The notes beneath the pieces were generated by a model that made no database searches, was not told the origin of the DNA, and saw nothing but the letters and a program-made list of their open reading frames with translations. Positions 44,962 through 59,082 of a stretch of 64,000 nucleotides of DNA are shown here, piece after piece; position 1 is the first letter of the stretch; each line of letters opens with the position of its first letter. The stretch spans positions 24,118 through 88,117 of the forward strand of contig DAORAL010000010.1 in assembly GCA_035344155.1 (NCBI GenBank), written 5' to 3'. The position numbers were made by a program, and so were the translations under genes. The stretch is from Phycisphaerae bacterium (GTDB lineage Bacteria > Planctomycetota > Phycisphaerae > UBA1845).

Positions 44962-45305
44962 GCCAAGACCTCCTGTCTCTGCTGTCTTCTGAGATGTCTG
45001 TATGTCAGTCGATATTGACGACACGTGTCAGTCAGAATCCAATGCGGATTAACCGACCGACATTCCCGGTGCATCATTGAAGGGCATTGATCTGCCAGAC
45101 CGAAAAAAACACCCGGTCCCAACATTGATACGCCCCGTGTCAGACATGAAGATCGCCCATTTCCACGGACATGTCGCGTCTGACACATGTCAGTTTGATC
45201 GCAATTGCGCCATGTTGCAAGTGAATAATCCGGGACAACCCGTTGGCTTCGATTGATGCGGGTCGCGGCAGGCAGGCGACCTCATCGCGATGAAACGCCC
45301 ACTTG

Positions 45306-45866
45306 CTACTTGGGCAATTTCAAATCCTCACCGGCGACCATCGCATCGATCTTCATCTTCGCCACGCTTTCGGCTGTGGCATTGAGCCCGAATGATCCGT
45401 CTTCAAGGCAGGCGTGCCATCCGGTCTTGTCCTTGGGTATTGCGGCGGATGCCAACGCGCGGACATGAACGGTATTCAGGCCATTGGTTGGGTTGGTTGG
45501 AAAAGGCTTTGAAATGTAAGGACCGTAGATGTGACTTTTGTCCGGTCCGTCGTTGGGCTCGCCTTCGGACGAGGTGTACTGCGTCAGTTGCTGGATGAAG
45601 AAGTCGCCATCCGGACTGCTGTTGGACGGATCGTAGCCCGGGTATTTCGAATGCTCGGCGTAGTACCGATCGATGGCTTTGCGAACATTGGTCAGCGTGG
45701 CCTGGATGGCGTTGGCTTTGGCCCGCTGACTGGCTTGCGTCAATCGGGGTACCGCGATTGCCCCCAGCACCGCGATGATTGCGACGACCATCACCAGCTC
45801 GACCAGCGAAAACGATGAACAGCGTGAAGCGCGATGTCCCTTGGGTTGTGCACTGCTCGCATTCAT
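45306..45866 (-). CDS. Prepilin-type (GspG-like) pilin/pseudopilin
   Basis: N-terminal methylation motif SS/FSLVELVMVVAIIAVLGAIAVP, with a GspG-like continuation (ANAIQATLTNVRKAIDRYYAEHSKYPG). Confidence 0.75.
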   Translation of the reverse strand: MNASSAQPKGHRASRCSSFSLVELVMVVAIIAVLGAIAVPRLTQASQRAKANAIQATLTNVRKAIDRYYAEHSKYPGYDPSNSSPDGDFFIQQLTQYTSSEGEPNDGPDKSHIYGPYISKPFPTNPTNGLNTVHVRALASAAIPKDKTGWHACLEDGSFGLNATAESVAKMKIDAMVAGEDLKLPK

Positions 45867-45986
45867 TGCGATCTCGACCAGACAAGAAAGCCGGATCAAG
45901 TTTCGCAAAACTCGATCCGGCTGATGTCTTTCAACATTGGGAACTTAAACGATCCCGAATGCTTGATGCGATACGTCCGAATCGTC

Positions 45987-46520
45987 CTAGTAGTCGCTGT
46001 AGTTCGCTGTCGATTCGTCAGTGGCGGTCGTGTTCGCACGAATCTCGCCGGTGTTCTGGTTGTAGACCCAGCCTTCACCCGAACCTTCCGAGACCGCAGG
46101 CGGGCTCGCTGCACCAAAGAGCACGTCCTTGCTGCCCGCATTGGCTCCAACCGGAAGCGGCGGAATACCGTTGCGAAGGTACGGGCCATAGATGATGCCG
46201 GTTGCCGCATTGAACGCACCGGTCTTACCGTCGATGTCGCTGAACTTGGTCAGCTGATCGACCATGTCGGCCGCGGCTCCGGTGCCGGCTGTTCCATCGT
46301 TCTTGTTCTTACCGGGGAAGACGCCGTTGTGCTCAGCCGCGTACAGGTCAATCGCCGCACGCAAAGCTGCAACGTCCCCTCGGACAGCGGAGTCGACAGC
46401 ACCCTTGGCCCCCCGACTGATTCGTGGAACCGCAATTGCTGCTACAATTCCAATAATCACAATCACGATCACCAGCTCGACGAGGCTGAAGCCAGCTCTC
46501 TTCTGACAATTGATTCTCAT
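45987..46520 (-). CDS. Prepilin-type (GspG-like) pilin/pseudopilin
   Basis: KRAG/FSLVELVIVIVIIGIVAAIAVPR has the canonical G-1, F+1, E+5. Confidence 0.8.
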   Translation of the reverse strand: MRINCQKRAGFSLVELVIVIVIIGIVAAIAVPRISRGAKGAVDSAVRGDVAALRAAIDLYAAEHNGVFPGKNKNDGTAGTGAAADMVDQLTKFSDIDGKTGAFNAATGIIYGPYLRNGIPPLPVGANAGSKDVLFGAASPPAVSEGSGEGWVYNQNTGEIRANTTATDESTANYSDY

Positions 46521-46638
46521 CGGTTCACCTCAAAACTACGGGGTTTTGCACGCGACAATCGCGGCTGTGTATTCTAAGTATCGACGCCATTCATCATGCC
46601 TTGAGTAATTCCAGGCAAAAAGCAGGTCCTATAAAACC

Positions 46639-47193
46639 CTACTCAACGGGACGTTCGCCTATGATCGGATCCACCAATTCCAGCACTTCGATGCCCGAAG
46701 GACACTCAAAGCGAACACTGCGCTGTGCAATCTCGACAACCGCGCAATCCGCGAGCCGCTGTCCCTTGCGGAAAATGACGCCATCGACCACGGCGCTGCG
46801 CGTCCCTTGAAGCTCAATGATCGCCGAGAGCGTGTGTTCAACATTGAACGGAACAGGCGGTGGGCCCGCATTGTCCTCGCTTTTCCTGCCGTCATCGGAT
46901 TCAGCCTCCGGTCCGGACAGTCGGCGAATCACTTCCTCCGACGGTGCAAAGATGTCGCGATGGACAAGACTCAAATCAGACGATTCCGCAAACTGCGGAA
47001 ACGGTTGAATCGACAGCGCCGCAATCCCCTGCTTCGGTGCATCCGACTTGGGGGTCTCGGTTTGGGACGCGTCCGCAGCGCTGGAGGCCATCGCTTCTGC
47101 AGGACCGCTGTCGCGCGTGACGACGTCGTAGACGACCACGCACAAGCCAACACCGAGCACCGACAGATAGATTCGTTTCCGCTTTGAAGACAT
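46639..47193 (-). CDS. TM-anchored protein, PilP/GspC-like (weak)
   Basis: N-terminal TM helix. The C-terminal beta-rich segment AIIELQGTRSAVVDGVIFRKGQRLADCAVVEIAQRSVRF resembles PilP/GspC HR domains. Positioned after the pilO-like gene. Confidence 0.35.
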   Translation of the reverse strand: MSSKRKRIYLSVLGVGLCVVVYDVVTRDSGPAEAMASSAADASQTETPKSDAPKQGIAALSIQPFPQFAESSDLSLVHRDIFAPSEEVIRRLSGPEAESDDGRKSEDNAGPPPVPFNVEHTLSAIIELQGTRSAVVDGVIFRKGQRLADCAVVEIAQRSVRFECPSGIEVLELVDPIIGERPVE

Positions 47194-47199
47194 GGGTAT

Positions 47200-47793
47200 T
47201 TACGGTTTCGCGCCGGCCTCCGTGTTGGAACGGGCAGCAAAGAGGCTGACCACGAACTCGGCTTTGTGCGTCTCGTTGCCCGGTTCAAAGGTCGTTGGAG
47301 CGCCGATGATTTTCAGTTTGGTGAGGTCCGCCCAGAACGGTTCAGATTCAAAATCGCTCAGGAACGCAAGCATGGCACCGAACGTCGAGCGACATTCGAC
47401 CCGATAGTTCAACTGCGTGAGTCCGGGATATTGCTTCACATCACCGGGATCAACCGTGACGAGGTCGATCTGGTTCGATCGAATCAAACGCGTGATTGCC
47501 TGGAGGTTGGCATTGACCGGTGCAGACTTGGGAAGCGCTCCGCGCTGACTCACTTCGCCTTCGACGCCCGCCAGTTCAATGTTCGAGCTGTTCAGATTCT
47601 GCTCAACCGCCCGCAGCGCCATCTTCAAGTCCTTCTTCTCTTTCAGGGCGCGTTCCAAGCGGGCGTGGGAGTCTGGCAGGTGGACAAACGTAGTCCACAA
47701 TCCGAACAACGCGATGGCCAGGACCAAGCCGCCACCGACCACGTCGTAGAACACGAATGGATTGCCCTTCAGCGAAGACTTCACCAGGTACAC
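47200..47793 (-). CDS. pilO: PilO-like pilus assembly protein
   Basis: TM helix, coiled coil, then a ferredoxin-like C-terminus (...YRVECRSTFGAMLAFLSDFE). Gene order is pilM-N-O. Confidence 0.55.
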   Translation of the reverse strand: MYLVKSSLKGNPFVFYDVVGGGLVLAIALFGLWTTFVHLPDSHARLERALKEKKDLKMALRAVEQNLNSSNIELAGVEGEVSQRGALPKSAPVNANLQAITRLIRSNQIDLVTVDPGDVKQYPGLTQLNYRVECRSTFGAMLAFLSDFESEPFWADLTKLKIIGAPTTFEPGNETHKAEFVVSLFAARSNTEAGAKP

Positions 47794-48386
47794 TCCAATA
47801 CAAATCGGACCGCCACACCGTCAGCCAGCGGAACCTGTCCGCTCTTGACCATGTCCACGCGATTAAACAACACGCCGTCATTGAGGGCGGCCATGAATGC
47901 AAGCAATTGCTCATGCTCCAAAGCGAAACCCGTCAGTCGAAGACCGGCAGGACCTTCCAATTCAATGGTGTCGCTTTTTTCTTCCTCCTTTGTCGCGGCG
48001 CGTCGCACCGTTGCCTTGGGGGCGTGATCGTAGCTCTCAAGCGACGTCAGCCAGACCTCTTGGGGCATCTTGGCGGTCAACGTCGCCATGAGGTTTTTCC
48101 ACGGGCGCTTCGATCGAATCGCGTCGGCGCGCGAGAGTCTCTGTCGAAGATCCGTCACCATCGACAAACTCTCCGAAAGCTTGTTCTTGGTGCCGGTCAG
48201 TTGACTACGGAGCGGTTTGAGTTCATTTTCGACCGTCGAAGCCTTCGCGGCTTTGAACACGTCAAACCCGACCGGGAACGCCGACGCAAACGTAACCACG
48301 GTCACCGCGATCAACCATCCGCGCAAACGGGAAGCCCGCTTCTTGGCGCGAATGTATGATTGAGGCAGTACGTTGACGCCTATCAC
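47781..48386 (-). CDS. pilN: PilN-like pilus assembly protein
   Basis: N-terminal VNVLPQSY (INLLP-type motif) followed by a TM helix. 4-nt overlap with pilM. Confidence 0.7.
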   Translation of the reverse strand: MIGVNVLPQSYIRAKKRASRLRGWLIAVTVVTFASAFPVGFDVFKAAKASTVENELKPLRSQLTGTKNKLSESLSMVTDLRQRLSRADAIRSKRPWKNLMATLTAKMPQEVWLTSLESYDHAPKATVRRAATKEEEKSDTIELEGPAGLRLTGFALEHEQLLAFMAALNDGVLFNRVDMVKSGQVPLADGVAVRFVLECTW

Positions 48387-49507
48387 AGCGAATCTCCCGG
48401 ATCGATCGCCAATCCGATGGCGGCTGCATACTCTGGCAGGGGCTCGCGAACATGTTCGCGAAGTTGCGAGAAATCAATCTGGCTGTGCGGCTCGACGCTT
48501 TCCATGCTCGGAACAATCACTTCGATACCCAGCTTGCTGGTCAGCAATTCCGCAAGGTTCTTCATGCTCGCCGCTCCACCGACGAGCAGCAGTGGTCCGC
48601 AAGGCCGATCATTGAAACATCGAATCGCGTATTTGTATGACCGTTCCAACTCTCCAACGATCCCGCCCAACTCTTCTCGCAGGACGTTGTAAATCATCTC
48701 CGCAACGGGACCGCCCGATGCGATCTCGGAATCGCTCTTGCGGCGCTGCTGCTTTGCGGCTCCGATCCCATGATCGCGTTTGTGGCGTTCCGCGGCTTTT
48801 CGGCTGATGGACAAAGCATCCGCCAACTGGTCGGTCCATTTCCGTCCACCCTTGTTGAAACTGCGCGCCAGAACCGGAACCTGAGCCACGCAGATAATCA
48901 ACCGCGTCTGCCGCGCTCCGAGATCGAGCACGCCCCAGACATCTTTTTGCGACACGGGACCACGAAATATCGAACCGAATCGAGCCAGCGCACACGATGT
49001 CGCGTCCAGGCGCGTGCATCGAAACTTCGCCCGCTCGCAAATCGGCATCAACGTTTCAAACGCAGTCGGACAGGCAGCCACCCCAATCGCCGATGACGTC
49101 ATCTGGCGACTTTCAGGAATGGGCCAATAGTCAATGGTCGCAGCCCCATCCTCGAAACTCATCAATCGTTCGATTTCCCAGCGGGCGGCTTGCCTGGTCT
49201 GCGCCGGGCTGGCGGATGCCGGCAATTCCATCGCGTGAAGTTCAATGTCAGGCGTCGAGAGCCCCATCACGCATTCGCGTTTGCGAAACCCCATCTGCAT
49301 AAGCCAAGCGCCGATCAGTTTCGAGGCGGCTTGTGGATTCGTCCGGGTACTCAAGTCTTCAGGCAGTTGCATTCCGCCCATGCGGGTCACGGCGTACTTG
49401 TCACCGATGCGGCGCAATTGCGCGGCGCGCACGCTGCGGTCCCCCACGTCGATCCCGACGGGCGTTACGCTTCCTGCTCGTGTTGCCAGTGGTAGTGTCA
49501 AGCCCAC
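48383..49507 (-). CDS. pilM: PilM-like actin-fold pilus assembly ATPase-like protein
   Basis: VGIDVGDRSVRAAQL, VLDLGARQTRL, LLLVGGAASMKNLAELL are the ASKHA/PilM pattern. Confidence 0.8.
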   Translation of the reverse strand: MGLTLPLATRAGSVTPVGIDVGDRSVRAAQLRRIGDKYAVTRMGGMQLPEDLSTRTNPQAASKLIGAWLMQMGFRKRECVMGLSTPDIELHAMELPASASPAQTRQAARWEIERLMSFEDGAATIDYWPIPESRQMTSSAIGVAACPTAFETLMPICERAKFRCTRLDATSCALARFGSIFRGPVSQKDVWGVLDLGARQTRLIICVAQVPVLARSFNKGGRKWTDQLADALSISRKAAERHKRDHGIGAAKQQRRKSDSEIASGGPVAEMIYNVLREELGGIVGELERSYKYAIRCFNDRPCGPLLLVGGAASMKNLAELLTSKLGIEVIVPSMESVEPHSQIDFSQLREHVREPLPEYAAAIGLAIDPGDSL

Positions 49508-49520
49508 CCGTACGAACTCC

Positions 49521-50741
49521 TTAGATCGCGGACGTCATGTCGAACAACGGCATGAACAGTGAAATCGCCACCGCACCAACGACAGCGCCCATGATGATCA
49601 GAATCAGCGGCTCAATCAGCTTCGTCGCGGTGCCCAACAACTCCGTGTTCTCTTCGTCGAGTATGTCCGCGACAAATGTGATCGATTCACCGAGACGCCC
49701 GCTTTGCTCACCGGTCTTGATCGCCTGCACCACCGACGGACTGATGAGTTTTGAATTCTCAAGCGCACCGCTGATGGATTCACCGCGCGTGACCGAATCC
49801 TCCAGTGAATCATAGATGCCCTGAAACTGATCGTTGGCAGTCACGCCCCGAGCCAGGTCGAGCGATTCGAGCAAACCAACCCGCGCCTCCAGCAACATGC
49901 CCAGGATTCGAAACGTCTGGCCCTGAATCAATCGCGACATCAATCGACCCAGAACGGGTATTCGCGTTTGGGCGTTCGCCAGGATCTGACGGCCCGCCTT
50001 CGTCCTGATCAGAAACACAATGCCCCCAATGACCGAAGCCACCATCAGCACAATCAGGATCCAGTGCGATCGCAGTGTGTTGGCTGTGCTCATCATGAAT
50101 TTCGTGGACCAAGGCAGTTCAACACCCAGCGTGCCGAACATGCCCGCAAAACGGGGAACCACGAAGAACATCATCACAGCCAGAATCTTGACCGAAAGAC
50201 ACAGCAACAGGATCGGATAGATCAACGAGCCAATGATCTTGTTGCGCGTCGCCCGCTGCTTTCCGATGATGTTCGCCAAGCGACTGAACATCTGCGGTAG
50301 CGTCGCGCTCGATTCACCTGCAGCCACAACCGCGCAATACGACGAACTGAAGGCATTCGGATGCTTGCGAAGGGCGTCCGTCAGCATCATGCCCTGTTCA
50401 AGGTCGTCGCGAACCACCGAGAGCATCGCCTTGGCTGTGGGACTCTTCATTTGTGCCGACACGGCATTGATCGCGGGCACCAGCGCGCTGCCCGATGTCA
50501 GCAGCATGGACATCTGTCGCGTGAACATCATCAACTGCTTGAGCGGAAGGGAGGCCTTGTCGTCGACCCGCTTCTTCCCGGCTTTTGATCCCTGCGAAAC
50601 TTCCACCGTCGCCGGCGCGACATGCGTCACGAAGAAACCCTGGCGACGCAGCGCTTCGACACCTTCCTTCACGGACGGCGCCTGCACCGTGTCGCGAACG
50701 TGCTGTCCCTTTTCATTGATGGCGTCGAAAACCAGATTCAT
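49521..50741 (-). CDS. pilC: Type II secretion/type IV pilus platform protein (GspF/PilC family)
   Basis: 406 aa. Two T2SSF repeats, 3 TM helices, and the conserved ...EQSGRLGESI... motif. Confidence 0.9.
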   Translation of the reverse strand: MNLVFDAINEKGQHVRDTVQAPSVKEGVEALRRQGFFVTHVAPATVEVSQGSKAGKKRVDDKASLPLKQLMMFTRQMSMLLTSGSALVPAINAVSAQMKSPTAKAMLSVVRDDLEQGMMLTDALRKHPNAFSSSYCAVVAAGESSATLPQMFSRLANIIGKQRATRNKIIGSLIYPILLLCLSVKILAVMMFFVVPRFAGMFGTLGVELPWSTKFMMSTANTLRSHWILIVLMVASVIGGIVFLIRTKAGRQILANAQTRIPVLGRLMSRLIQGQTFRILGMLLEARVGLLESLDLARGVTANDQFQGIYDSLEDSVTRGESISGALENSKLISPSVVQAIKTGEQSGRLGESITFVADILDEENTELLGTATKLIEPLILIIMGAVVGAVAISLFMPLFDMTSAI

Positions 50742-52489
50742 ACGATCACCTCATCGGGCAACATGCCTGACGGATCGCAGACCACTGCCCCTTCCGAACG
50801 CGTCACGCGCAGGACTTCTTCAAGGGTCGATTCGCCACGATCGACGACATCAAGCGCCTTCTCGCGAAGCGTGCGCCAGCCCGTCTCTGCCAGGTACAAT
50901 CGAATGTCTGACTCCGACGCGCGGCGATTGATCAACCGCTTCAATTCCGCGTCGATCACCATGACTTCGTAAATGCCTGCTCGGCCTTTGAATCCGGTGT
51001 TGTGGCACTCGCGACAGCCTTCACCACGCTGGAAGAGTTCGTTGGTGCGATGCCCCCAGCCGACACTTGCAAGCAGTTCCGGCGCGGGATAGTAAGAAGC
51101 CGCACACGATCTGCAGATGCGACGGGCCAATCGCTGCGCGACGAATCCAAGCAACGCGGAACCGATCAGATAGGATTCGATGCCCATGTCCGCGAGGCGC
51201 ATGATTCCGCCAGGACAATCGTTGGTGTGCAGCGTGCTCAACACCATGTGACCGGTCAGTGCGGCTTGCACCGCGACGCGCGCGGTGTCCTCGTCGCGAA
51301 TCTCACCCACCATGATGACATCGGGGTCCTGTCGCAACACCGACCGCAGCGCCCGCGAGAACGACAGGCCCACTTCCGAATTCACTTGAATCTGGTTGAT
51401 TTGCTGAAGCTGATACTCCACCGGATCTTCGACGGTCACGATGTTGACGGCTTCATCGCGCAATAGATCGAGCGCCGAGTAAAGCGTCGTCGTCTTACCA
51501 CTACCCGTCGGACCGGTGACCAGCATCATCCCGTAGGGACTGCGAATCATGGTCTCGATGGCCATCAGGTCTTCATCAGCCACCCCGAGCTTGCTCAACT
51601 CGAGACTCAGGTTGCTCTTGTCGAGCACGCGCATCACGATCTTTTCGCCCAAGACCGTCGGCATGCTTGAGACGCGCAAGTCGATCTCCCGCCCGTCCGC
51701 CACCAGGTGAACGCGACCTTCCTGCGGCAGACGTTTTTCGGCGATGTCCATTCGCCCGACGACCTTGATGCGCGAGACGATTGCCGCATGCATTCCCTTC
51801 GGAGGGTTCAACATCTCGCGCAGTTGGCCGTCGATTCGATATCGGATATGCGTCGAACCACGATCGGGTTCGATGTGAATGTCGCTCGCACCGTCGCGGA
51901 CGGCTGTCAAAATGGCAAGGTTAACCAGGTTGATGACCGGACTGCCATCGACCATCTTGTCGAGGTCGGTGACGGGACCTTCGTCGATGGCCTCGCTTTC
52001 GGAGATGGTGACGTCCGACTCTTCGATCGACGCCAGAAATGCATCGACCGTCACTTCCGACGCGAGGTACTTGCGCTGATACTCGATGAGGTTGTCTTCA
52101 TCGACGAGCACGGGACGAATCGCATGCCCGGTGCTGTTGCTAAGTCGATCGAGCGTCGGCACAGACTGAGGATCGACCATCGCCACGGTCAGTTCGCCAT
52201 GAACCAGAAAGAGCGGAAGCACTTTGAGGTGCTCGGCCTCCTCCTTCGGAATCATTCGAGCCACCTTTGGATCGATCAGGCCGTGGCGAAGGACGCAGCC
52301 TTTGACGCCCATCCGGTCGGCCAGCGAATGAACCAGCGCCTGCGCAGACAATGACCCCAGGTCGACGAGCGCTTCACCAACGCGCTGTCCACTGGATGCC
52401 TGCTTCGCCAGCGCCTCTTCCAGTTGCTCCTGGGTGATGAGGCCTTTGGCGACGAGGTGCTCGCCCAATCTGACTTCCGGTCCGATCAT
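50738..52489 (-). CDS. GspE/PilB/MshE-family secretion ATPase with an N-terminal MshEN-type domain
   Basis: Walker A TGPTGSGKTTTLYSAL, Asp/His boxes, tetracysteine CRSC...CRECHNTGFKGR. N-terminal RLGEHLVAKGLITQEQLEEALAKQ-ASSGQ-RVGEALVDLGSLSAQALVHSLADR. Confidence 0.9.
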   Translation of the reverse strand: MIGPEVRLGEHLVAKGLITQEQLEEALAKQASSGQRVGEALVDLGSLSAQALVHSLADRMGVKGCVLRHGLIDPKVARMIPKEEAEHLKVLPLFLVHGELTVAMVDPQSVPTLDRLSNSTGHAIRPVLVDEDNLIEYQRKYLASEVTVDAFLASIEESDVTISESEAIDEGPVTDLDKMVDGSPVINLVNLAILTAVRDGASDIHIEPDRGSTHIRYRIDGQLREMLNPPKGMHAAIVSRIKVVGRMDIAEKRLPQEGRVHLVADGREIDLRVSSMPTVLGEKIVMRVLDKSNLSLELSKLGVADEDLMAIETMIRSPYGMMLVTGPTGSGKTTTLYSALDLLRDEAVNIVTVEDPVEYQLQQINQIQVNSEVGLSFSRALRSVLRQDPDVIMVGEIRDEDTARVAVQAALTGHMVLSTLHTNDCPGGIMRLADMGIESYLIGSALLGFVAQRLARRICRSCAASYYPAPELLASVGWGHRTNELFQRGEGCRECHNTGFKGRAGIYEVMVIDAELKRLINRRASESDIRLYLAETGWRTLREKALDVVDRGESTLEEVLRVTRSEGAVVCDPSGMLPDEVIV

Positions 52490-52492
52490 CGG

Positions 52493-52828
52493 CTACAAGA
52501 AACTCCGCACTGCATCCTGCAACGAGTCAAAGTAATCAACCTTCCGGGACTGACCGGTCAGTTCCAATGCTTCGCGACACGTTGCCGAAGTACCCGCAAG
52601 CCTGAGCCGACTGCCCCGACTCATCAGGCTGTCGGAGGTCTCCACGAGTCCTTCAATTCCACGACTGTCAATATATGGCACTTTTTCCATGTTCAAGACG
52701 AAACGCGGATTCGCGGTGCTTAGCTTCTCCGCCATCAAGGCGATGAGCTCCTCGGCATCCTCGTCGACGATGGGCCCAGCCGGCGCCATCACATCAACCG
52801 TCCCCACACGTTTCTGCTCAATGCTCAT
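52493..52828 (-). CDS. STAS-domain protein (anti-sigma-factor antagonist family)
   Basis: 111 aa. ...FVLNMEKVPYIDSRGIEGLV...RLAGTSATCREALELTG is the SpoIIAA/RsbV pattern, including a DSxG serine. Confidence 0.8.
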   Translation of the reverse strand: MSIEQKRVGTVDVMAPAGPIVDEDAEELIALMAEKLSTANPRFVLNMEKVPYIDSRGIEGLVETSDSLMSRGSRLRLAGTSATCREALELTGQSRKVDYFDSLQDAVRSFL

Positions 52829-54171
52829 ACCGCGGCGACTCCGTTCGCTTCGTCAGTGCATGCCAACATGGCCAGTCCGAGTTTGCGCGCTTCTGTTGAA
52901 ATGGACGCGGCCCGCGAGAGCAATGCGTCGAGCGACGGTCGCTGTGTGCCGCTGCTGGCCAACCCGCACCGCACGCCGATTTGATTACCGGGATCTCCGA
53001 GCGATTTGATCGTGTCCACGATGTGGCTTTGGATCTTCCTGACGATCAAACTGGCCAACTCTGCATCGACGCTGACCAACATGACCACGAAGGTCGATCC
53101 ATCGAAGAAACCAGCGCAGTCATTTTCGCGAACGCGCTCGCGGATGATTTCACTGATGCGGCGAATGGCGTCCTTGGCGATGTCCCAGCGGCCATTGTCC
53201 GTCAGACGGCGCAAGCCTTCGACGTTGAAATTCACCACCGATACCGGTTCGTTTTTGGCAAAAGAAGCCGCCATCGCGTGACCGGCTTTTGTCAGGAAAG
53301 CCTCGGGCGTCAGCACACCCGCCACCGAATCCGTTTCGTCCGCCAACCGGCTTCGACATGCTTCCGTCAGCGAACCCCAGCACAGGGAAACCATCGCCTC
53401 CATCAAACGAAGACGGTGCCTTGCGGCGATTTCGGTATTGGCCAACTCGCCCACCTGAATCACACCGATCAGATTGTCTTGCACGTGCACCGAAAAGCAC
53501 CAGGCGCACGCCCCCTGGATCAAGCCAGCCAATTCATGAATGGAGTCGTTGGACTTGTCGTCGCGATAAAAACTCTTTCCGCTCGTCACCACGTACCCGC
53601 GAATGCCAGCCCGCAGCGGTGGGAAGTCGTTTTCCTTCGGCGCCGTCTCGTGCAACGGAAGCAGCGTATGGTCGTCGGGCGACAGCAGTCGGTACGCCTT
53701 GATCTGCGAAGCGCCGCAACACGCCAACAACGTCGCACGCACGAATTCACCAAAGTCGGGCCAGGGGTCGGCCAGATCCCGGTGCTGCGTCAGCCATCGA
53801 TCGAATTGCCGCGGGACCGCGACGATGGACTCGATGGGCCCAACCTCTTCGGCGCGGGTTGCAGAATCCGACTTTGGGTCTGCAACCGAACCTCGTTCCG
53901 TTTGACTCGACGCCGCGATCGCCGTTCGGTGCATCTCTGGACGCACGAATCGCGGCATTGAGAACACAACAAGCGCCAAAGCGCCAGCCGCCAGCGACAC
54001 AGCAATCGCCGACGCCTGCGTTTCCAAACCGCCCATGACCACGGCTGAGAAAACCCAAAACCCGACAGACGCCAAACCCAATGCCCAAGCACTCGGGCGA
54101 CGCAGGTATCGCGCCCCAAGACCGGAGAGCATCGCGAGTGGAATCCAGTACATCGACAGCTGGAGACCCAT
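52825..54171 (-). CDS. Membrane protein with GAF domain and degenerate GGDEF domain (A-site DGSTF, I-site REND retained)
   Basis: N-terminal TM helices. GAF-like SVHVQDNLIGVIQVGELAN. GGDEF-fold context RERVRENDCAGFFDGSTFVVML (nt 53089-53130). Confidence 0.65.
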   Translation of the reverse strand: MGLQLSMYWIPLAMLSGLGARYLRRPSAWALGLASVGFWVFSAVVMGGLETQASAIAVSLAAGALALVVFSMPRFVRPEMHRTAIAASSQTERGSVADPKSDSATRAEEVGPIESIVAVPRQFDRWLTQHRDLADPWPDFGEFVRATLLACCGASQIKAYRLLSPDDHTLLPLHETAPKENDFPPLRAGIRGYVVTSGKSFYRDDKSNDSIHELAGLIQGACAWCFSVHVQDNLIGVIQVGELANTEIAARHRLRLMEAMVSLCWGSLTEACRSRLADETDSVAGVLTPEAFLTKAGHAMAASFAKNEPVSVVNFNVEGLRRLTDNGRWDIAKDAIRRISEIIRERVRENDCAGFFDGSTFVVMLVSVDAELASLIVRKIQSHIVDTIKSLGDPGNQIGVRCGLASSGTQRPSLDALLSRAASISTEARKLGLAMLACTDEANGVAAV

Positions 54172-55451
54172 TACTCAGCCTCCTTTGTTGCGGGTGAATA
54201 CGCCAAACCCTTCAAGCCCGATAAATGCCCGCTCTCAACTTTTCCGTTGGCATCTACTTTCAGTCGTCCCGACGCCAGCTCGTGCCGGATGAGCTCTTCG
54301 AACACGGGTACAAGCTTCGGGTCCCCGACCTTGCCCGCGTCTTCTCGCAAGATGGCCAGCGCTTTTTCGAATCCGAATGCTTCTCGATACGAGCGCGTCG
54401 TGGTCAGCGCGTCAAACACGTCGGCGACAAGAATGATGCGCGCGTCCAGCGGGATCCCTTCACCAGCCAAACCATCCGGATATCCGCGACCGTCGAATCG
54501 TTCGTGATGGTGTCGCACACCACCCAACGCGCCGGCCATCTGCGGAATGGCTTTGACCACGTCGTAGCTTCGAACCGGGTGCTCCTTGATGTGTTCGAAT
54601 TCCTCGTCCGTCAGCTTGCCCGGTTTCTTGAGCACATCGTCGCGAATTCCAATCTTGCCGACGTCGTGAAGCAGTGCCGCCCATTCGAGCATTTGCAGGC
54701 GATTTCCAGTCAATCCAATCGCTTGTCCAAGCAGTTTGGCGAAGTGCCCCACCCGGTTGGAATGCCCGGACGTGTATTCGTCTTTTTGGTCAACCGCGCT
54801 GACCAACGCCTTGACGGTGTCGATCGACAGTTCTCTTAAACGATCAGCCAACTCGTAATTTCGCAACAAGTCGCCGCACACCGACACGAGGGCATCGATC
54901 AAGCTCATGTCGCTTGCGTCAAAGCGTCGGTTTTTTCCGTCGTTCGCGAAGACGATCGCACAGACAAACTCGTCTCCGACGAACACCGGGGAGACCATGA
55001 TTTCCAGCACGTCGGAAATCGGATGTTCAAAGACCTTCACCACCGCCCGCTGTTGATAGATGCACGCGCGAACCTCGCCAGCCATCTCTTCCGCGTTGTG
55101 TGGAGGACCGTCGGTCCACAGGAGCATGTCATTTTTGTCCAGGCTCAGCGAATACAGTCGCATGTCCTGATAGGTGATGCGAAGCGAATCGACGAAGAGT
55201 CGGACCACGTCTTCACGCGTGTCCGCTGTCGACAGTCGGCGGGTGACCTCAAAGACAATCCCGAGCTGCTCGTATGCGCGAATCAGATCGTCAGCCAGAC
55301 CGGTGTGCTCGCTGAACACCAGGTCAATCTGGCTTTGGACCGATTCAATAACGCGATCGACCACCTCGTTGGTCGACGGAAGGCAGCAAGCAACGGCCTT
55401 CCGTAGGCTCGCCAGCTCTTCGTTGATTTGAATGTGTCTCATCTGTGGCAT
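54171..55451 (-). CDS. GAF-HD-GYP domain c-di-GMP phosphodiesterase-type protein
   Basis: HSNRVGHFAKLL, LLHDVGKIGI, HHERFDGRGYPDGL are the full HD-GYP signature. Confidence 0.85.
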   Translation of the reverse strand: MPQMRHIQINEELASLRKAVACCLPSTNEVVDRVIESVQSQIDLVFSEHTGLADDLIRAYEQLGIVFEVTRRLSTADTREDVVRLFVDSLRITYQDMRLYSLSLDKNDMLLWTDGPPHNAEEMAGEVRACIYQQRAVVKVFEHPISDVLEIMVSPVFVGDEFVCAIVFANDGKNRRFDASDMSLIDALVSVCGDLLRNYELADRLRELSIDTVKALVSAVDQKDEYTSGHSNRVGHFAKLLGQAIGLTGNRLQMLEWAALLHDVGKIGIRDDVLKKPGKLTDEEFEHIKEHPVRSYDVVKAIPQMAGALGGVRHHHERFDGRGYPDGLAGEGIPLDARIILVADVFDALTTTRSYREAFGFEKALAILREDAGKVGDPKLVPVFEELIRHELASGRLKVDANGKVESGHLSGLKGLAYSPATKEAE

Positions 55452-55497
55452 AAAGGATCACCAGATTCGGGTTTCCAAAGCTTCGCCCAATCCCCTG

Positions 55498-55905
55498 TTA
55501 TTCAACATTACGGGCTTCGACGGCGTTTCTGGACTCTTCGAGACGCTGCTCGATTTCATTACTCAACCGTGAAGGCGAAAACGGCTTCGGATGCACGGTC
55601 ACCTTGAGTTGGTGCATCTGTTCGCCGATTTGGGCCTGATCACAACGGGCACTGAGCATGACAACGGGGATGTCTGACTTGAATTCGCCACGGAGCCACT
55701 GCGCCAGTTCAATACCGTTGCAGTGGGGCATGTTGATGTCGGTGACGAGAAAGTCGACGCCGCCAGCTGCGATCACATCCTTCGCCTGAAGGCCATCCGT
55801 CGCCTCCAAGACCTGGTGCCCGTTTCGCGCCAGCCACATCGACATCAGTCGCATCACGTGCGCGTCATCTTCTGCAACGAGAATTGTTGCCATGAACTTA
55901 CCCAT
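55498..55905 (-). CDS. Single-domain response regulator (CheY-like receiver)
   Basis: ILVAEDDAHVMRLM..., FLVTDINMPHCNGIEL (phospho-Asp context), a conserved Lys region. No output domain. Confidence 0.85.
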   Translation of the reverse strand: MGKFMATILVAEDDAHVMRLMSMWLARNGHQVLEATDGLQAKDVIAAGGVDFLVTDINMPHCNGIELAQWLRGEFKSDIPVVMLSARCDQAQIGEQMHQLKVTVHPKPFSPSRLSNEIEQRLEESRNAVEARNVE

Positions 55906-55917
55906 CCTTCACAACGG

Positions 55918-57798
55918 CTATGCGTTTGATCCCTGCAACACACTGGCGCCCTTGTCCAGTGCAAGCGAGAACGAGAATGTTGCCCCCTCACCCTTCTTGC
56001 TGACCACGGTAATTTCTCCACCGTGTTGACGTACGATTTCCTGCGCGGTGGTCAGACCGATTCCCGTCCCGGTCTCTTGAAGCACATCGGGGTCTTCCGC
56101 CCGCTGGAACTTCTCGAAAATCCGACCGTGATCGCGCGGATCGATTCCGATTCCCGAATCGCGCACCGAAACCGTAAGCCCATTGTTTTCCGACTTGCAC
56201 GACATCACGACCTGCCCGTTTTCCGGCGTGTACTTCAACGCGTTACCGAGCAGGTTGTTCACCACAACCGTAAGCTTGTCGCGATCGCCCTGGATCTTCT
56301 CGGCCTTTGGCGGAAGCGTCAGCTGGAGGTCGATGTTTTTGGACTCCGCGATTCCCCGAACATCGCGAACCGCTTCCGTCAGCAGTTGACAAAGATCAAC
56401 GCGATCCATCACCAGCTGCATCGTTCCCACCTCAAGCTGCGAAATGCTCAGGATGTCTTCGATCAGGCGGGACAATCGCCGCGTTTCCTTGGTGATGACG
56501 TTGTAGCACTCCGTGATCACCTGCGGATCGTCGAACATGCCGCTCGAAAGCGTTTCGGCATACGCGCGAATGTTCGTCAACGGCGTCCGCAGTTCGTGGG
56601 TCACCTGCGAGACAAACTCCTCGCGGGCTTTGTCGGCGCGAACCTGCTGGCTGACATCCTGGATCAACGCAATCACGCGGCGCGAATGATGAACGGTCTG
56701 CATCTGGTTGATGCGAACCGAATAGAAACTCCCATCCGACATCTCGAGCTGGCAGTCGGTCGACCCGATCGCCGCACCGCCCTCGCTGCTCGCACGAATC
56801 TGGTCCGCAATCAAGACCGCGTCATTGGAAAGCTCGACGTCCGGCCCCAAGTGCCACGTCGATTCGTCATCCACCGACCATCCCATGATGCGACACGACA
56901 TCGCGTTCGCGTAAATGACCGTCATCGTTTCCGACAACAAGAGCACGCCGGTCGGAACCAACCGCATCGCCTCCGCCAGGTCGCCCGTGTTCGTTCGATC
57001 CAATGCCGCCAGCAACTCGGACGATGCCGCGCTACGCGACAACTCTTCCTCTTGCTCTGCGGCTCGATCGATCAGCCGATTCCATCCTTCAGCCAGCGCG
57101 TCAGGCGTCTGAACCAATCGCAGCGAAGACAGTTGGATGTCTCCGGAGTTGGCGGCTTGATCCAGTTGACGCGCGATCTGTTTCACGCTGCGAAAGTGTT
57201 TGCGCATGCTGCCATAAAGCAGAAGAAATGCCCCGGCACACAACAGCGCGACCACGAACATCTGGATCGATGCCGTTGAATTCGCCAACGCCTCGCGACC
57301 AAACCGCACTTCGACGTAGCGCGCGCCCGATTCACCCGTTGCAGCGATCGGCGCACGCACCGTGAACATTTCGCCGCCCTTGCCCGGGCGATGTCGCATC
57401 AGGGTCTCGACGCTTTGCGGAACGATTCGCGGCACCTCACTGGTCGCGGGCAGAGGCTGGCCCTTCTCGGTCGGTTGCGTTGAGGCAAGAATGGTGTGCG
57501 AATCGTCGAGTATCCGAACCCCCAGGCATCGATTCGCTTGCGCAAACTGGTTGATCGTCGCCAACGTCATGCGATCAACGCCCGACGCCTCCGGATCAAG
57601 TTGCTGCACAAGAAATGCAACGGACTGCCCATACGACCGTCCGACATTTTCCGAGATTGCCACGGACGTCTGGCGCTGCGACAGAATCAACAGTGCTGCC
57701 GGCGCAACCACAAACACGCCCACCAGCAGCATTCCAATCCTGCGCGGAACCTCCTCCGCATCCCAAAACAAACGAATTCTGTGCAACAGTGATTGCAT
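55918..57798 (-). CDS. Sensor histidine kinase (periplasmic sensor, PAS, HisKA, HATPase_c)
   Basis: H-box VTHELRTPLTNIRAYAETL, N/G boxes (LLGNALKYT, DSGIGI, GTGIGL). Two TM helices flank an extracytoplasmic domain. Confidence 0.85.
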   Translation of the reverse strand: MQSLLHRIRLFWDAEEVPRRIGMLLVGVFVVAPAALLILSQRQTSVAISENVGRSYGQSVAFLVQQLDPEASGVDRMTLATINQFAQANRCLGVRILDDSHTILASTQPTEKGQPLPATSEVPRIVPQSVETLMRHRPGKGGEMFTVRAPIAATGESGARYVEVRFGREALANSTASIQMFVVALLCAGAFLLLYGSMRKHFRSVKQIARQLDQAANSGDIQLSSLRLVQTPDALAEGWNRLIDRAAEQEEELSRSAASSELLAALDRTNTGDLAEAMRLVPTGVLLLSETMTVIYANAMSCRIMGWSVDDESTWHLGPDVELSNDAVLIADQIRASSEGGAAIGSTDCQLEMSDGSFYSVRINQMQTVHHSRRVIALIQDVSQQVRADKAREEFVSQVTHELRTPLTNIRAYAETLSSGMFDDPQVITECYNVITKETRRLSRLIEDILSISQLEVGTMQLVMDRVDLCQLLTEAVRDVRGIAESKNIDLQLTLPPKAEKIQGDRDKLTVVVNNLLGNALKYTPENGQVVMSCKSENNGLTVSVRDSGIGIDPRDHGRIFEKFQRAEDPDVLQETGTGIGLTTAQEIVRQHGGEITVVSKKGEGATFSFSLALDKGASVLQGSNA

Positions 57799-59001: not shown

Positions 59002-59082
59002 TTGGCCAACCTGTCAAACGTCCGCTGGGGGAAAAATCACACCGTAGGTCCGATATTCATGAATCAGTTTCACTTGAAGGTC

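What the first reader, a model, noticed from the sequence alone, without database searches (positions are those of the whole stretch)
45306..57798. 13-gene operon putting a type IV pilus/T2SS-like machine directly under a two-component, c-di-GMP and STAS partner-switch input layer
Seen in the sequence:
- One minus-strand array: histidine kinase, receiver-only RR, GAF-HD-GYP, GAF-degenerate GGDEF, STAS, MshE/PilB-like ATPase, PilC, PilM, PilN, PilO-like, PilP/GspC-like and two GspG-like prepilins.
- From the HD-GYP gene to the PilP-like gene, the junctions are overlaps or gaps of 13 nt or less (1, 4, 4, 4 and 13-nt overlaps; 3, 13 and 6-nt gaps). This argues for a single translationally coupled unit.
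- No secretin (PilQ/GspD), prepilin peptidase, retraction ATPase or minor pilin set is encoded in cis.

Established knowledge: c-di-GMP control of MshE-type ATPases and STAS partner switching are each known separately.

Inference: I am not aware of a described system that hard-wires a STAS protein, a degenerate GGDEF receptor and an HD-GYP enzyme into the same operon as the pilus motor. This is my best candidate for an undescribed regulatory/secretion module in the window.
Basis: partly seen in the sequence, partly recalled or inferred. Interest (0 to 1): 0.7.

Follow-up and report, generated by a model that had tools for sequence, protein, structure and literature searches.

The report
Signal-wired pilus-like machine operon of Phycisphaerae
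A planctomycete (class Phycisphaerae) gene cluster joins a pilus or secretion-type filament motor to its own sensor kinase, c-di-GMP enzymes and a small STAS switch protein; the arrangement recurs in dozens of related species and I found no description of it.

Summary
The gene array is real and sits at the stated coordinates. All 13 minus-strand genes, the junction sizes and the missing secretin, peptidase and retraction ATPase check out. GAF domains are only sub-threshold.

The window comes from a Phycisphaerae (Planctomycetota) MAG. A STAS-anchored scan found relatives in 129 species-level genomes, and the 80 kept are almost all labelled Phycisphaerae or Planctomycetota. Of 58 loci with enough flank, 41 carry HK-RR-HD-GYP-GGDEF*-STAS-ATPase, and most long loci continue into PilC/M/N/O/P and pilin genes. 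Six or seven lack RR, HD-GYP and GGDEF* but keep HK-STAS-ATPase.

Family-wide motifs fit a working c-di-GMP circuit:
- intact HD and GYP motifs;
- GGDEF replaced by D(G/D/E)SRF, with the RxxD I-site kept;
- MshEN c-di-GMP motifs on the ATPase;
- an invariant Asp-Ser phospho-site on a SpoIIAA-fold STAS.

A terminator-like hairpin follows pilin 1 in the window and in 33 of 57 relatives. The core unit is therefore more likely 12 genes, with pilin 2 separate or read-through.

No searched paper describes a STAS protein beside a PilB-type motor. STAS-to-GGDEF partner switches are known (HsbA-HsbD, SiaC-SiaD).

Verdict: a conserved, undescribed variant of known parts. All functions are inferred.

The parts
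55918..57798 (-). Membrane sensor histidine kinase. It has two hydrophobic segments flanking a roughly 130-aa extracytoplasmic region, then PAS-like, HisKA and HATPase_c domains.
   Evidence: Pfam HisKA 60.5 bits and HATPase_c 95.6 bits; sub-threshold PAS_8 and sCache_3_2. It is the first gene of the array in almost all related loci.
55498..55905 (-). Receiver-only response regulator (135 aa).
   Evidence: Pfam Response_reg 72.5 bits. D13 is in 61 of 62 orthologues (one gapped); D56 and K107 are invariant in 62. No output domain and no fusion to HD-GYP in any locus.
54171..55451 (-). HD-GYP c-di-GMP phosphodiesterase with an N-terminal, possibly GAF-like, sensory region.
   Evidence: Pfam HD_5 128 bits. 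In 62 orthologues H262, D263, G265 and K266 are invariant, as are H315, H316, E317, G321, G323, Y324 and P325. GAF is only sub-threshold.
52825..54171 (-). Membrane-anchored degenerate GGDEF protein (hydrophobic N-terminus, GAF-like region, GGDEF*). It is a predicted c-di-GMP receptor through its I-site, not a cyclase.
   Evidence: Pfam GGDEF 27.8 bits and GAF_2 E=7e-4. The GGDEF motif is DGSTF here and D(G/D/E)SRF across the family. RxxD (REND) lies 5 residues upstream and is kept in nearly all of 62 orthologues.
52493..52828 (-). Single-domain STAS protein (111 aa) of the SpoIIAA/RsbV type with a conserved phospho-serine position.
   Evidence: Pfam STAS 49.2 bits. The AF2 model has pLDDT 94 and matches SpoIIAA/RsbV-type antagonists at TM 0.86-0.89. 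D54-S55 is invariant in 82 sequences. It overlaps GGDEF* by 4 nt and stops 3 nt before the ATPase start. It sits immediately upstream of the ATPase gene in every locus that reaches that gene.
50738..52489 (-). PilB/GspE-family assembly ATPase with an N-terminal MshEN c-di-GMP-binding domain.
   Evidence: Pfam T2SSE 458.8 bits and MshEN 50 bits. NCBIfam c-di-GMP_motif scores 61.5 against a cut-off of 38; PilB 590 and GspE 571 are both below their equivalog cut-offs. It matches PilF/PilB structures over the full length. The N-domain aligns to the MshE (5htl) and PilF c-di-GMP domains. The motifs are conserved in 70 orthologues.
49521..50741 (-). PilC/GspF inner-membrane platform protein.
   Evidence: Pfam T2SSF 144.8 bits in two repeats. 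NCBIfam GspF 308 bits, below its cut-off of 424.
48383..49507 (-). PilM actin-like cytoplasmic component.
   Evidence: Pfam PilM_2 71.4 bits and FtsA; TIGR01175 pilM 83 bits.
47781..48386 (-). PilN.
   Evidence: Pfam PilN 32.4 bits.
47200..47793 (-). PilO/GspM homologue.
   Evidence: No Pfam hit alone. A profile of 22 orthologues hits M. xanthus PilO 3jc8_Oa at E=2.8e-6. There is a weak GspM hit. Positional orthologues in L008 and L091 hit Pfam PilO.
46639..47193 (-). PilP/GspC-like protein: N-terminal hydrophobic (membrane) helix, a disordered linker and a C-terminal HR-type beta domain.
   Evidence: No Pfam or PDB sequence hit. The AF2 C-terminal domain (residues 116-175) has pLDDT about 90. 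Foldseek top hits are the GspC HR domain from the GspC-GspD complex (3oss_C, TMt 0.66), PilP (3jc8_Pa, 2y4y) and GspB. E-values are weak (4e-3 and above).
45987..46520 (-). Pilin 1, the probable major subunit. It is a GspG-like prepilin with cleavage motif G|FSLVE.
   Evidence: Pfam N_methyl 33.9 bits. The best NCBIfam hit is GspG, over the N-terminus only. (G/A)FSL(V/I/L)E occurs in 56 of 57 orthologues, most have no Cys, and GPY/GPW occurs in 56 of 56. Median identity to relatives is 50%.
45889..45922 (-). Terminator-like hairpin (15 pairs) plus a T-rich tail between pilin 1 and pilin 2.
   Evidence: A hairpin plus T-tract lies within 150 nt after pilin 1 in 33 of 57 related loci, against 39 of 551 random windows.
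45306..45866 (-). Pilin 2, a paralogue of pilin 1, with S/A/G at the position before the cleavage site. It is a variable add-on.
   Evidence: Pfam N_methyl 21.2 bits. It is paralogous to pilin 1 at about E=1e-17. It is absent in some loci, for example L092.
43849..45024 (-). 391-aa HTH plus hydrophobic-segment protein directly downstream. It is a possible accessory gene of the closest subclade only.
   Evidence: Sub-threshold HTH_17. It is conserved after pilin 2 in L001-L019. More distant loci carry about 360-aa N_methyl proteins and GspH-like genes there instead.

Best explanation
This is a lineage-specific type IV filament machine of Phycisphaerae, intermediate between a type IVa pilus and a type II secretion system. 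It comes with its own built-in signalling layer.

Shown by sequence and comparison:
- The machine comprises a PilB-like ATPase, a PilC platform, a PilM/N/O alignment complex, a PilP/GspC-HR protein and GspG-like pilin(s).
- All are encoded in one conserved, tightly packed unit running from a sensor kinase to the major pilin.

Inferred mechanism:
1. The membrane kinase senses an extracytoplasmic cue and phosphorylates the receiver-only regulator.
2. The regulator, together with the N-terminal sensory domain of the HD-GYP protein, sets the activity of the HD-GYP phosphodiesterase. This acts as a split version of REC-HD-GYP enzymes and controls a local c-di-GMP pool.
3. Two receptors in the operon read that pool. 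One is the MshEN domain of the assembly ATPase. The other is the membrane-anchored, catalytically dead GGDEF protein, which keeps its RxxD I-site.
4. Bound c-di-GMP licenses filament assembly, as in MshE and PilB.
5. The STAS protein is co-translated between the GGDEF* receptor and the ATPase and keeps the canonical phospho-serine. It acts as a switchable adaptor that couples or uncouples the ATPase and the signalling proteins. Its Ser55 state is set by a kinase/phosphatase pair encoded elsewhere.
6. The filament exits through a secretin encoded elsewhere, which the HR domain would contact.
For: Components were identified by Pfam, NCBIfam, PDB profile and fold searches.

Conservation:
- Gene order is conserved, with 41 of 58 informative loci carrying the full regulatory set. 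The 80 loci kept out of 129 matching species genomes are almost all labelled Phycisphaerae or Planctomycetota.
- The GGDEF*-STAS 4-nt overlap recurs in 32 loci. The STAS-ATPase junction is a 3-nt gap in 14 loci and a 4-nt overlap in 6.

Catalytic and ligand motifs:
- The HD-GYP motifs are invariant in 62 orthologues.
- The GGDEF motif is uniformly degenerate, but RxxD is kept 5 residues upstream.
- The MshEN tandem motifs are conserved in 70 ATPases, and NCBIfam c-di-GMP_motif scores above its cut-off.
- The receiver's D56 and K107 are invariant and D13 is present in 61 of 62.

STAS:
- It has a SpoIIAA fold, with invariant D54-S55 at the N-terminus of helix 2.
- It is about as conserved as PilC (median identity 44% against 49%).
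- Reduced loci keep HK-STAS-ATPase.

Precedents:
- STAS proteins act on GGDEF proteins in HsbA-HsbD (PMC5085249) and SiaC-SiaD (PMC7647112).
- c-di-GMP acts on PilB/MshE through MshEN, according to the review PMC11656802.
Against: - No function was tested. Every regulatory arrow is inferred from gene order and motifs.
- No RsbW-type serine kinase or PP2C phosphatase lies in cis in any locus examined, so how Ser55 would be switched is unknown.
- No active diguanylate cyclase is in the operon, so the source of c-di-GMP is unspecified.
- No fusion protein links STAS or RR to another cluster member.
- The RR target is a guess.
- A minority of loci work without RR, HD-GYP and GGDEF*, so the c-di-GMP enzymes are not essential to the machine.
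- Secretin, prepilin peptidase and retraction ATPase are missing from the window, and whole genomes could not be searched.
- Whether the output is a pilus or a secretion pseudopilus is unresolved. The ATPase and split PilM/PilN look pilus-like. The pilins, the PilC best hit and the HR domain look GspG-, GspF- and GspC-like.
Confidence: 0.6

Rival explanations
1. The STAS protein is an ordinary anti-sigma-factor antagonist. It works only through an unlinked RsbW-type anti-sigma kinase to release a sigma factor, for example one that transcribes pilin or envelope genes. Its position beside the ATPase serves co-expression, not physical interaction with the machine.
For: - It has the canonical SpoIIAA/RsbV fold and an invariant phospho-serine.
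- Its nearest relatives outside the family are multi-STAS proteins fused to HATPase_c_2 kinases, which are classical partner-switch parts.
- No kinase or phosphatase is in cis, so a trans partner is needed in any case.
Against: - Partner-switch genes are usually encoded together with their kinase (my own knowledge). Here the STAS gene is instead locked between GGDEF* and the ATPase, with overlapping or near-touching reading frames in dozens of species.
- It stays glued to the ATPase even where RR, HD-GYP and GGDEF* are absent.
- No sigma or anti-sigma gene recurs in the flanks.
Confidence: 0.2
2. STAS and GGDEF* form a SiaC-SiaD or HsbA-HsbD-like pair. STAS binds the GGDEF* protein and changes its c-di-GMP binding or its scaffolding. 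The ATPase is affected only indirectly through c-di-GMP.
For: - A 4-nt GGDEF*-STAS overlap occurs in 32 loci.
- The best NCBIfam hit of GGDEF* is SiaD, although far below its cut-off.
- There are published STAS-to-GGDEF interactions.
Against: - STAS persists, still adjacent to the ATPase, in loci that lack GGDEF* (L008, L047, L080, L084, L088-L091).
- GGDEF* is catalytically dead, so the known logic of activating a cyclase cannot apply.
Confidence: 0.15
3. The regulatory genes are simply neighbours of an ordinary pilus or T2SS cluster and have no dedicated role in it.
For: Two-component and c-di-GMP genes are abundant in planctomycete genomes and often lie near motility genes (own knowledge). 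The promoter scan found no internal promoters, but it is not informative for this phylum.
Against: - Order, orientation and overlapping junctions are conserved down to 38-45% STAS identity in dozens of species.
- The flanking genes change from locus to locus.
Confidence: 0.05

Closest known systems
MshE / PilB-type assembly ATPases that bind c-di-GMP through MshEN (V. cholerae MSHA pilus, M. xanthus PilB, T. thermophilus PilF)
   Same: - The ATPase aligns over its full length to PilF and PilB.
- Its N-domain aligns to the solved MshE and PilF c-di-GMP domains.
- It passes the NCBIfam c-di-GMP motif model.
   Different: - Those systems have no STAS, HD-GYP or degenerate GGDEF gene next to the ATPase, according to the review PMC11656802.
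- The MSHA locus carries its secretin in cis (own knowledge). This locus does not.
- The pilins here are GspG-like.
FimX-PilZ-PilB (Pseudomonas, Xanthomonas)
   Same: A catalytically degenerate GGDEF-containing c-di-GMP receptor promotes pilus assembly by acting on the PilB motor (papers found; review read).
   Different: - FimX is a soluble REC-PAS-GGDEF*-EAL* protein that binds c-di-GMP at its EAL domain and is encoded elsewhere.
- Here the receptor is a membrane-anchored GAF-like-GGDEF* protein with a conserved I-site and no EAL domain, encoded inside the operon.
- No PilZ gene is present.
RpfC/RpfG (REC-HD-GYP) with GGDEF partners controlling pilus motility in Xanthomonas
   Same: The signalling logic runs from sensor kinase to receiver to HD-GYP phosphodiesterase to GGDEF-domain partner to pilus ATPases. 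This comes from my own knowledge. The review PMC3749722 was found but not read.
   Different: - There the parts are dispersed and REC is fused to HD-GYP.
- Here REC and HD-GYP are separate adjacent genes with no fusion in any locus.
- All parts sit in the machine's operon, with an added STAS protein.
Partner switches that act on diguanylate cyclases: HptB-HsbR-HsbA-HsbD and SiaABCD (P. aeruginosa)
   Same: A phosphorylatable STAS-type protein binds a GGDEF protein and links phosphorelay input to c-di-GMP output. HsbD also affects type IV pili (PMC5085249, PMC7647112).
   Different: - Those systems encode the PP2C phosphatase and RsbW-like kinase with the STAS protein, and their GGDEF proteins are active cyclases.
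- Here no kinase or phosphatase is in cis, and the GGDEF is dead.
- The STAS gene is tied to the motor ATPase even without GGDEF*.
Type II secretion systems (Gsp) and type IVa pili (Pil)
   Same: It shares the ATPase, platform, PilM/N/O (equivalent to GspL/M), PilP/GspC HR domain and class III signal-peptide pilins.
   Different: - It scores below the equivalog cut-offs for both PilB and GspE, and for GspF and GspG.
- It has split PilM/PilN like pili, but GspG-like pilins and a best HR match to GspC.
- There is no secretin, peptidase or PilT in 64 kb.

Membership tests
Type IV filament superfamily machine | PilB/GspE-family hexameric ATPase | tested here: met
   T2SSE 458.8 bits. Full-length match to PilF/PilB structures at E about 1e-140.
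Type IV filament superfamily machine | PilC/GspF platform protein | tested here: met
   T2SSF 144.8 bits in two repeats.
Type IV filament superfamily machine | Prepilins with an N-terminal methylation/cleavage motif | tested here: met
   N_methyl in both pilins. (G/A)FSL(V/I/L)E in 56 of 57 pilin 1 orthologues.
Type IV filament superfamily machine | Prepilin peptidase | tested here: not met
   None among the ORFs of the 64-kb window that were scanned. The rest of the genome could not be searched.
Type IV filament superfamily machine (diderm) | Outer-membrane secretin | tested here: not met
   None in the window or within 10 kb in the related loci examined. An HR-type domain that binds secretins in known systems is present, so one is expected in trans.
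Type IVa pilus | PilB equivalog score | tested here: not met
   TIGR02538 scores 590.2 bits against a cut-off of 675.65.
Type IVa pilus | Separate PilM, PilN, PilO and PilP | tested here: met
   PilM_2 and PilN by Pfam. PilO by profile against 3jc8. PilP/GspC-HR by fold.
Type IVa pilus | PilT retraction ATPase | tested here: not met
   Absent from the window. The second ATPase in L046 and L047 is another MshEN-T2SSE protein, not PilT.
Type II secretion system | GspE, GspF and GspG equivalog scores | tested here: not met
   GspE 571 against 630; GspF 308 against 424; GspG 40 against 88.85.
Type II secretion system | GspD secretin, GspL, and minor pseudopilins GspH-K in the locus | tested here: not met
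   None in the window. Some relatives carry GspH-like and large N_methyl proteins downstream.
MshEN c-di-GMP receptor domain | Tandem 24-residue RLGxx(L/V/I)(L/V/I)xxG... motifs at the N-terminus | tested here: met
   NF053729 scores 61.5 bits against a cut-off of 38. The motifs are conserved in 70 orthologues. The domain aligns to 5htl and the PilF c-di-GMP domains.
MshEN c-di-GMP receptor domain | Actual c-di-GMP binding | not testable with these tools
   Needs ITC, DRaCALA or a comparable binding assay.
HD-GYP phosphodiesterase | HD metal-binding residues and the HHExxDGxxGYP motif | tested here: met
   HD_5 128 bits. H262, D263, H315, H316, E317, G321, G323, Y324 and P325 are invariant in 62 orthologues.
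Diguanylate cyclase (active GGDEF) | GG(D/E)EF active-site motif | tested here: not met
   DGSTF here and D(G/D/E)SRF family-wide.
Degenerate-GGDEF c-di-GMP receptor (I-site type; PelD and PopA as examples from my own knowledge) | RxxD I-site 5 residues upstream of the (degenerate) GGDEF motif | tested here: met
   REND here. R..D is kept in nearly all of 62 orthologues.
Partner-switching module (RsbV/RsbW/RsbU, SpoIIAA/AB/E) | STAS antagonist with a phosphorylatable Ser at the start of helix 2 | tested here: met
   D54-S55 is invariant in 82 sequences. The helix spans 55-70 in the AF2 model. TM is 0.86-0.89 to SpoIIAA/RsbV-type antagonists.
Partner-switching module (RsbV/RsbW/RsbU, SpoIIAA/AB/E) | Cognate HATPase_c_2 serine kinase/anti-sigma and PP2C phosphatase encoded with it | tested here: not met
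   Neither is in the window cluster nor among the recurrent flank families of 80 loci. The HK's HATPase_c_2 hit is sub-threshold (19.8 bits against 27.4).
Two-component system | HisKA plus HATPase_c kinase, and a receiver with the conserved Asp/Lys residues | tested here: met

The most novel reading that the evidence does not exclude
The SpoIIAA-type STAS protein is a dedicated, phospho-switchable subunit of the filament motor. It docks directly on the PilB-like ATPase, for instance through its invariant C-terminal AVRSF tail, and gates assembly. The HK/RR, HD-GYP and GGDEF* layer tunes this switch. That would be the first partner switch whose output is a type IV filament ATPase rather than a sigma factor or a cyclase. 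It would also define a Phycisphaerae-wide, self-contained sense-and-extend module.
Probability: 0.3. Interest if true: 0.75.

Novelty: new variant of a known kind. Interest (0 to 1): 0.55.

Why it matters
How assembly ATPases of type IV filaments are switched on is an active question. The known cofactors (PilZ, FimX, MshEN-bound c-di-GMP and others) are scattered in proteobacterial genomes, which makes the wiring hard to infer.

Here a whole signalling chain is written into one conserved operon of a poorly studied, environmentally widespread planctomycete class. It comprises a sensor, a receiver, a c-di-GMP phosphodiesterase, a dead-GGDEF receptor, a STAS switch and an MshEN motor.

This yields testable predictions about who talks to whom. 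The main one is that a STAS partner-switch protein acts on a filament motor.

It also offers a first handle on pilus or secretion biology in Phycisphaerae, where I found nothing described in the searchable literature.

Tried and rejected
- **PDB sequence search for the PilP-like family:** a profile of the family found nothing meaningful. Only structure prediction plus Foldseek resolved it.
- **Structure prediction with locus-derived rows:** A shallow 10-sequence alignment was used instead, so only the C-terminal domain is confident.
- **Rosetta-stone fusions:** I looked for STAS-ATPase, STAS-GGDEF and RR-HD-GYP fusions and found none. Longer STAS hits are multi-STAS proteins fused to HATPase_c_2, TIR or Pkinase-ankyrin domains.
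- **Kinase, phosphatase, secretin, peptidase or PilT in the flanks:** I clustered the flanking ORFs of 80 loci. The recurrent families are large N_methyl proteins, GspH-like pilins and unrelated metabolic genes.
- **Second ATPase in L046 and L047:** this is another MshEN-T2SSE paralogue, not PilT.
- **RNA elements:** an Rfam scan of 43000-59500 at E<=1, which would include c-di-GMP riboswitches, gave no hit.
- **Promoters:** the sigma-70 scan found none. It is uninformative for this phylum.
- **PilB versus GspE:** I could not decide between them. NCBIfam scores are nearly equal and both are below cut-off. The PDB comparison is biased because the GspE constructs are truncated.
- **STAS family outside Phycisphaerae:** the weak tail of the STAS profile hits is not listed by the tools. 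STAS-ATPase adjacency in other phyla is therefore not excluded.
- **Literature:** ten searches returned nothing on this architecture. The library lacks most subscription-journal papers, so absence is not proof.

Full report
**1. What is in the sequence**

The minus strand of 45306-57798 carries thirteen consecutive ORFs. Pfam assigns them as follows:

| Gene | Coordinates | Pfam |
|---|---|---|
| HK | 55918-57798 | HisKA + HATPase_c |
| RR | 55498-55905 | Response_reg only |
| HD-GYP | 54171-55451 | HD_5/HD |
| GGDEF* | 52825-54171 | weak GGDEF |
| STAS | 52493-52828 | STAS |
| ATPase | 50738-52489 | MshEN + T2SSE |
| PilC | 49521-50741 | T2SSF |
| PilM | 48383-49507 | PilM_2 |
| PilN | 47781-48386 | PilN |
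| PilO-like | 47200-47793 | none |
| PilP-like | 46639-47193 | none |
| pilin 1 | 45987-46520 | N_methyl |
| pilin 2 | 45306-45908 | N_methyl |

Overlaps are 1, 4, 4, 4 and 13 nt, and gaps are 3, 13 and 6 nt.
- Other gaps are HK-RR 12 nt, RR-HD-GYP 46 nt and PilP-pilin 1 118 nt.
- The two unassigned genes were resolved here. A profile of 22 orthologues of the 197-aa protein hits M. xanthus PilO (3jc8, E=2.8e-6).
- The AF2 model of the 184-aa protein is confident only in its C-terminal beta domain. That domain's best Foldseek matches are the GspC HR domain from the GspC-GspD complex, PilP and GspB. E-values are weak, but nine of the top nine hits are this fold.
- GAF domains in the HD-GYP and GGDEF* proteins are supported only by sub-threshold hits.
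- Pfam scans of the other large ORFs of the 64-kb window found no secretin, prepilin peptidase or PilT.

**2. Where it comes from and how conserved it is**

- The exact STAS protein is encoded on contigs of planctomycete MAGs (GCA_041399145.1, GCA_002338715.1) with identical gene order.
- A scan of one genome per GTDB species, using a STAS alignment, found 129 genomes with a relative. The 80 loci kept are almost all labelled Phycisphaerae, Phycisphaerales or Planctomycetota.
- I compared the window's proteins with six-frame ORFs of all loci. Of 58 loci with at least 6 kb upstream of the ATPase, 41 show HK-RR-HD-GYP-GGDEF*-STAS-ATPase. Most long loci continue with PilC-PilM-PilN-PilO-PilP-pilin.
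- Most of the remaining loci miss a single detection. Some misses are probably sensitivity or ORF-calling failures.
- Six or seven loci are truly reduced to HK-STAS-ATPase-PilC... (L008, L047, L080, L084, L088-L091).
- Pre-computed Pfam annotation of independent contigs gives the same picture.
- The 4-nt GGDEF*-STAS overlap recurs in 32 loci. The STAS-ATPase junction is a 3-nt gap in 14 loci and a 4-nt overlap in 6.
- Flanking genes differ between loci.
- Median identity of distant orthologues to the window:

| Protein | Median identity |
|---|---|
| ATPase | 74% |
| pilin 1 | 50% |
| PilC | 49% |
| HD-GYP | 48% |
| RR | 46% |
| STAS | 44% |
| GGDEF* | 33% |
| PilN, PilO, PilP | 27-29% |

- The regulatory genes therefore evolve like integral parts of the cluster.

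**3. Operon boundaries**

- A 15-pair hairpin followed by a T-rich tail lies on the minus strand at 45922-45889, between pilin 1 and pilin 2.
- A hairpin plus T-tract occurs within 150 nt after pilin 1 in 33 of 57 related loci, against 39 of 551 random windows of the same loci.
- Some relatives end the cluster after a single pilin (L092).
- The conserved unit is therefore most likely 12 genes, HK to pilin 1. This is inference. Pilin 2 would be expressed by read-through or separately.
- Downstream content varies. The window's subclade has a 391-aa HTH-containing protein. More distant loci have about 360-aa and larger N_methyl proteins and GspH-like pilins, that is, minor-pilin candidates.

**4. 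State of the signalling parts**

- **HD-GYP.** H262, D263, G265 and K266 are invariant in 62 orthologues. So are H315, H316, E317, G321, G323, Y324 and P325. The enzyme is predicted active.
- **GGDEF\*.** The active-site motif is DGSTF here and D(G/D/E)SRF across the family. The RxxD I-site lies exactly five residues upstream (REND here) and is kept in nearly all 62 orthologues. This is the signature of a c-di-GMP receptor, not a cyclase. PelD and PopA are examples I recall from my own knowledge.
- **ATPase.**
  - Residues 7-57 pass NCBIfam's MshE-related c-di-GMP motif model (61.5 bits against a cut-off of 38).
  - The tandem RLGxxLVxxGLI...Q motifs are conserved in 70 orthologues, including the reduced loci.
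  - The domain aligns to the solved c-di-GMP-binding domains of V. cholerae MshE (5htl) and T. thermophilus PilF.
- **RR.** D56 and K107 are invariant in 62 orthologues, and D13 is present in 61 of 62.
- **STAS.**
  - The AF2 model (pLDDT 94) superposes on SpoIIAA- and RsbV-type antagonists at TM 0.86-0.89.
  - D54-S55 is invariant in 82 sequences and sits at the N-terminus of helix 55-70, the canonical phosphorylation site.
  - The C-terminal AVRSF is nearly invariant.
- **STAS relatives.** The nearest relatives outside the family are multi-STAS proteins, several fused to RsbW-type HATPase_c_2 kinases.
- **Missing partners.** No such kinase and no PP2C phosphatase occurs in the cluster or recurrently in its flanks.

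**5. What kind of machine**

- The ATPase matches type IVa assembly ATPases over its full length (PilF and PilB, about 460-470 bits). It scores below the NCBIfam equivalog cut-offs of both PilB (590 against 676) and GspE (571 against 630).
- PilC scores best against GspF, also below cut-off.
- PilM and PilN are separate genes, as in pili.
- The pilins are GspG-like at the N-terminus and mostly lack cysteines. They carry a GPY/GPW motif in 56 of 56 orthologues.
- The HR-domain protein implies contact with a secretin, which must be encoded elsewhere. This is inference from the GspC-GspD and PilP-PilQ precedents.
- I therefore file it as a type IV filament machine of undetermined output (pilus or pseudopilus), not as a member of T4aP or T2SS proper.

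**6. Most likely mechanism**

Every step below is inferred.
1. The membrane kinase senses an external cue and phosphorylates the receiver.
2. The receiver and the N-terminal sensory domain of the HD-GYP protein set phosphodiesterase activity and thus a local c-di-GMP pool.
3. The MshEN domain of the motor and the membrane-anchored GGDEF* I-site receptor read that pool.
4. c-di-GMP-bound ATPase is assembly-competent, as in MshE and PilB (review PMC11656802).
5. STAS is produced stoichiometrically between GGDEF* and the ATPase. It is a phospho-switchable adaptor linking the motor to the signalling proteins.

HK-STAS-ATPase survives when RR, HD-GYP and GGDEF* are absent. The STAS partner is therefore more likely the ATPase (or the HK) than GGDEF*.

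The rivals are a purely canonical anti-sigma antagonist acting in trans, and a SiaC-SiaD or HsbA-HsbD-like STAS-GGDEF* pair (PMC7647112, PMC5085249). Neither is excluded.

**7. Comparison with what is known**

Each element has precedents:
- c-di-GMP binding by MshEN;
- a degenerate GGDEF receptor acting on PilB (FimX);
- HK-REC-HD-GYP signalling to pili through GGDEF partners (Rpf system; my own knowledge);
- STAS proteins acting on GGDEF cyclases (HsbA-HsbD, SiaC-SiaD).

What I did not find anywhere is a STAS or anti-anti-sigma protein encoded next to, or proposed to act on, a PilB/GspE-type ATPase. Nor did I find this combined operon. This rests on ten full-text searches and on the 2024 review of PilB cofactors, which contains no mention of STAS, anti-sigma or HD-GYP. 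Database names for the STAS family are only generic. The library misses most subscription-journal papers, so this is absence of evidence.

**8. Verdict**

- The finding is real and strongly conserved. As far as I could check, it is undescribed.
- It is a new variant (a new wiring) of known kinds of parts, not a new kind of system.
- Interest is moderate to good. It gives concrete, testable predictions about motor regulation and opens pilus or secretion biology in Phycisphaerae.
- Every functional statement remains an inference from gene order, motifs and predicted folds.

Noticed in passing
window 45889-45922 (minus strand): A 15-pair hairpin plus T-rich tail lies right after pilin 1. The same kind of element follows pilin 1 in 33 of 57 related loci, against 7% of random windows. 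It suggests a terminator or attenuator that sets the major pilin apart from downstream genes.
   Followed up: yes
window 43849-45024 (minus strand): A 391-aa protein with a sub-threshold HTH_17 hit at its N-terminus and a hydrophobic segment lies directly after pilin 2. It is conserved there only in the closest subclade (L001-L019). More distant loci carry large N_methyl (minor-pilin-like) and GspH-like genes at that position. Its role is unknown.
   Followed up: partly
window 58189-59001 (plus strand): A BtpA-family gene lies divergently upstream of the kinase. The same neighbour recurs in many but not all related loci, for example L007, L011-L019, L026, L051 and L064. No link to the cluster is evident.
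   Followed up: no
L014 (JANQQE010000021.1, 666 kb contig): This MAG is labelled Alphaproteobacteria. It carries a 77%-identical STAS gene and the full Phycisphaerae-type cluster including BtpA. The contig or bin is probably misassigned.
   Followed up: no
window 52493-52510 (C-terminus of STAS): The last residues of the STAS protein, AVRSF(L/I), are invariant or nearly so across the family. This is unusual for the end of a STAS domain. It could be a docking motif.
   Followed up: partly
L046 19660-20333 and L047 19496-20333: Two related loci have no pilin genes after the PilP-like gene. About 3 kb downstream, after DUF2752 and glycosyltransferase genes in L046, a second MshEN-T2SSE ATPase gene starts.
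   Followed up: partly
P0204, P0217, P0220, P0252, P0260, P0270: The nearest non-family relatives of this STAS are multi-STAS proteins fused to RsbW-type kinases, to a TIR domain, or to a Ser/Thr protein kinase with ankyrin repeats. These are unusual partner-switch architectures in their own right.
   Followed up: no
window 28578-31037 and 30629-33157 (plus strand): Two long ORFs both hit the type I phosphodiesterase/nucleotide pyrophosphatase family and overlap by about 400 nt. They are either tandem paralogues with an over-extended start or a frameshift. L007 also has two such genes in tandem near its cluster.
   Followed up: no
window 21897-26315 (minus strand): A 1472-aa subtilase (Peptidase_S8) has weak or sub-threshold hits to Big_9, MAM-like and NIDO domains. 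It may be a secreted or surface protease.
   Followed up: no
window 59668-60582 and 60975-62885 (plus strand): A PEP-CTERM-anchored protein with a sub-threshold PPC (pre-peptidase C-terminal) hit lies next to an FG-GAP/ASPIC-UnbV repeat protein. Both are also neighbours of the cluster in the closest relatives (L001-L003).
   Followed up: no
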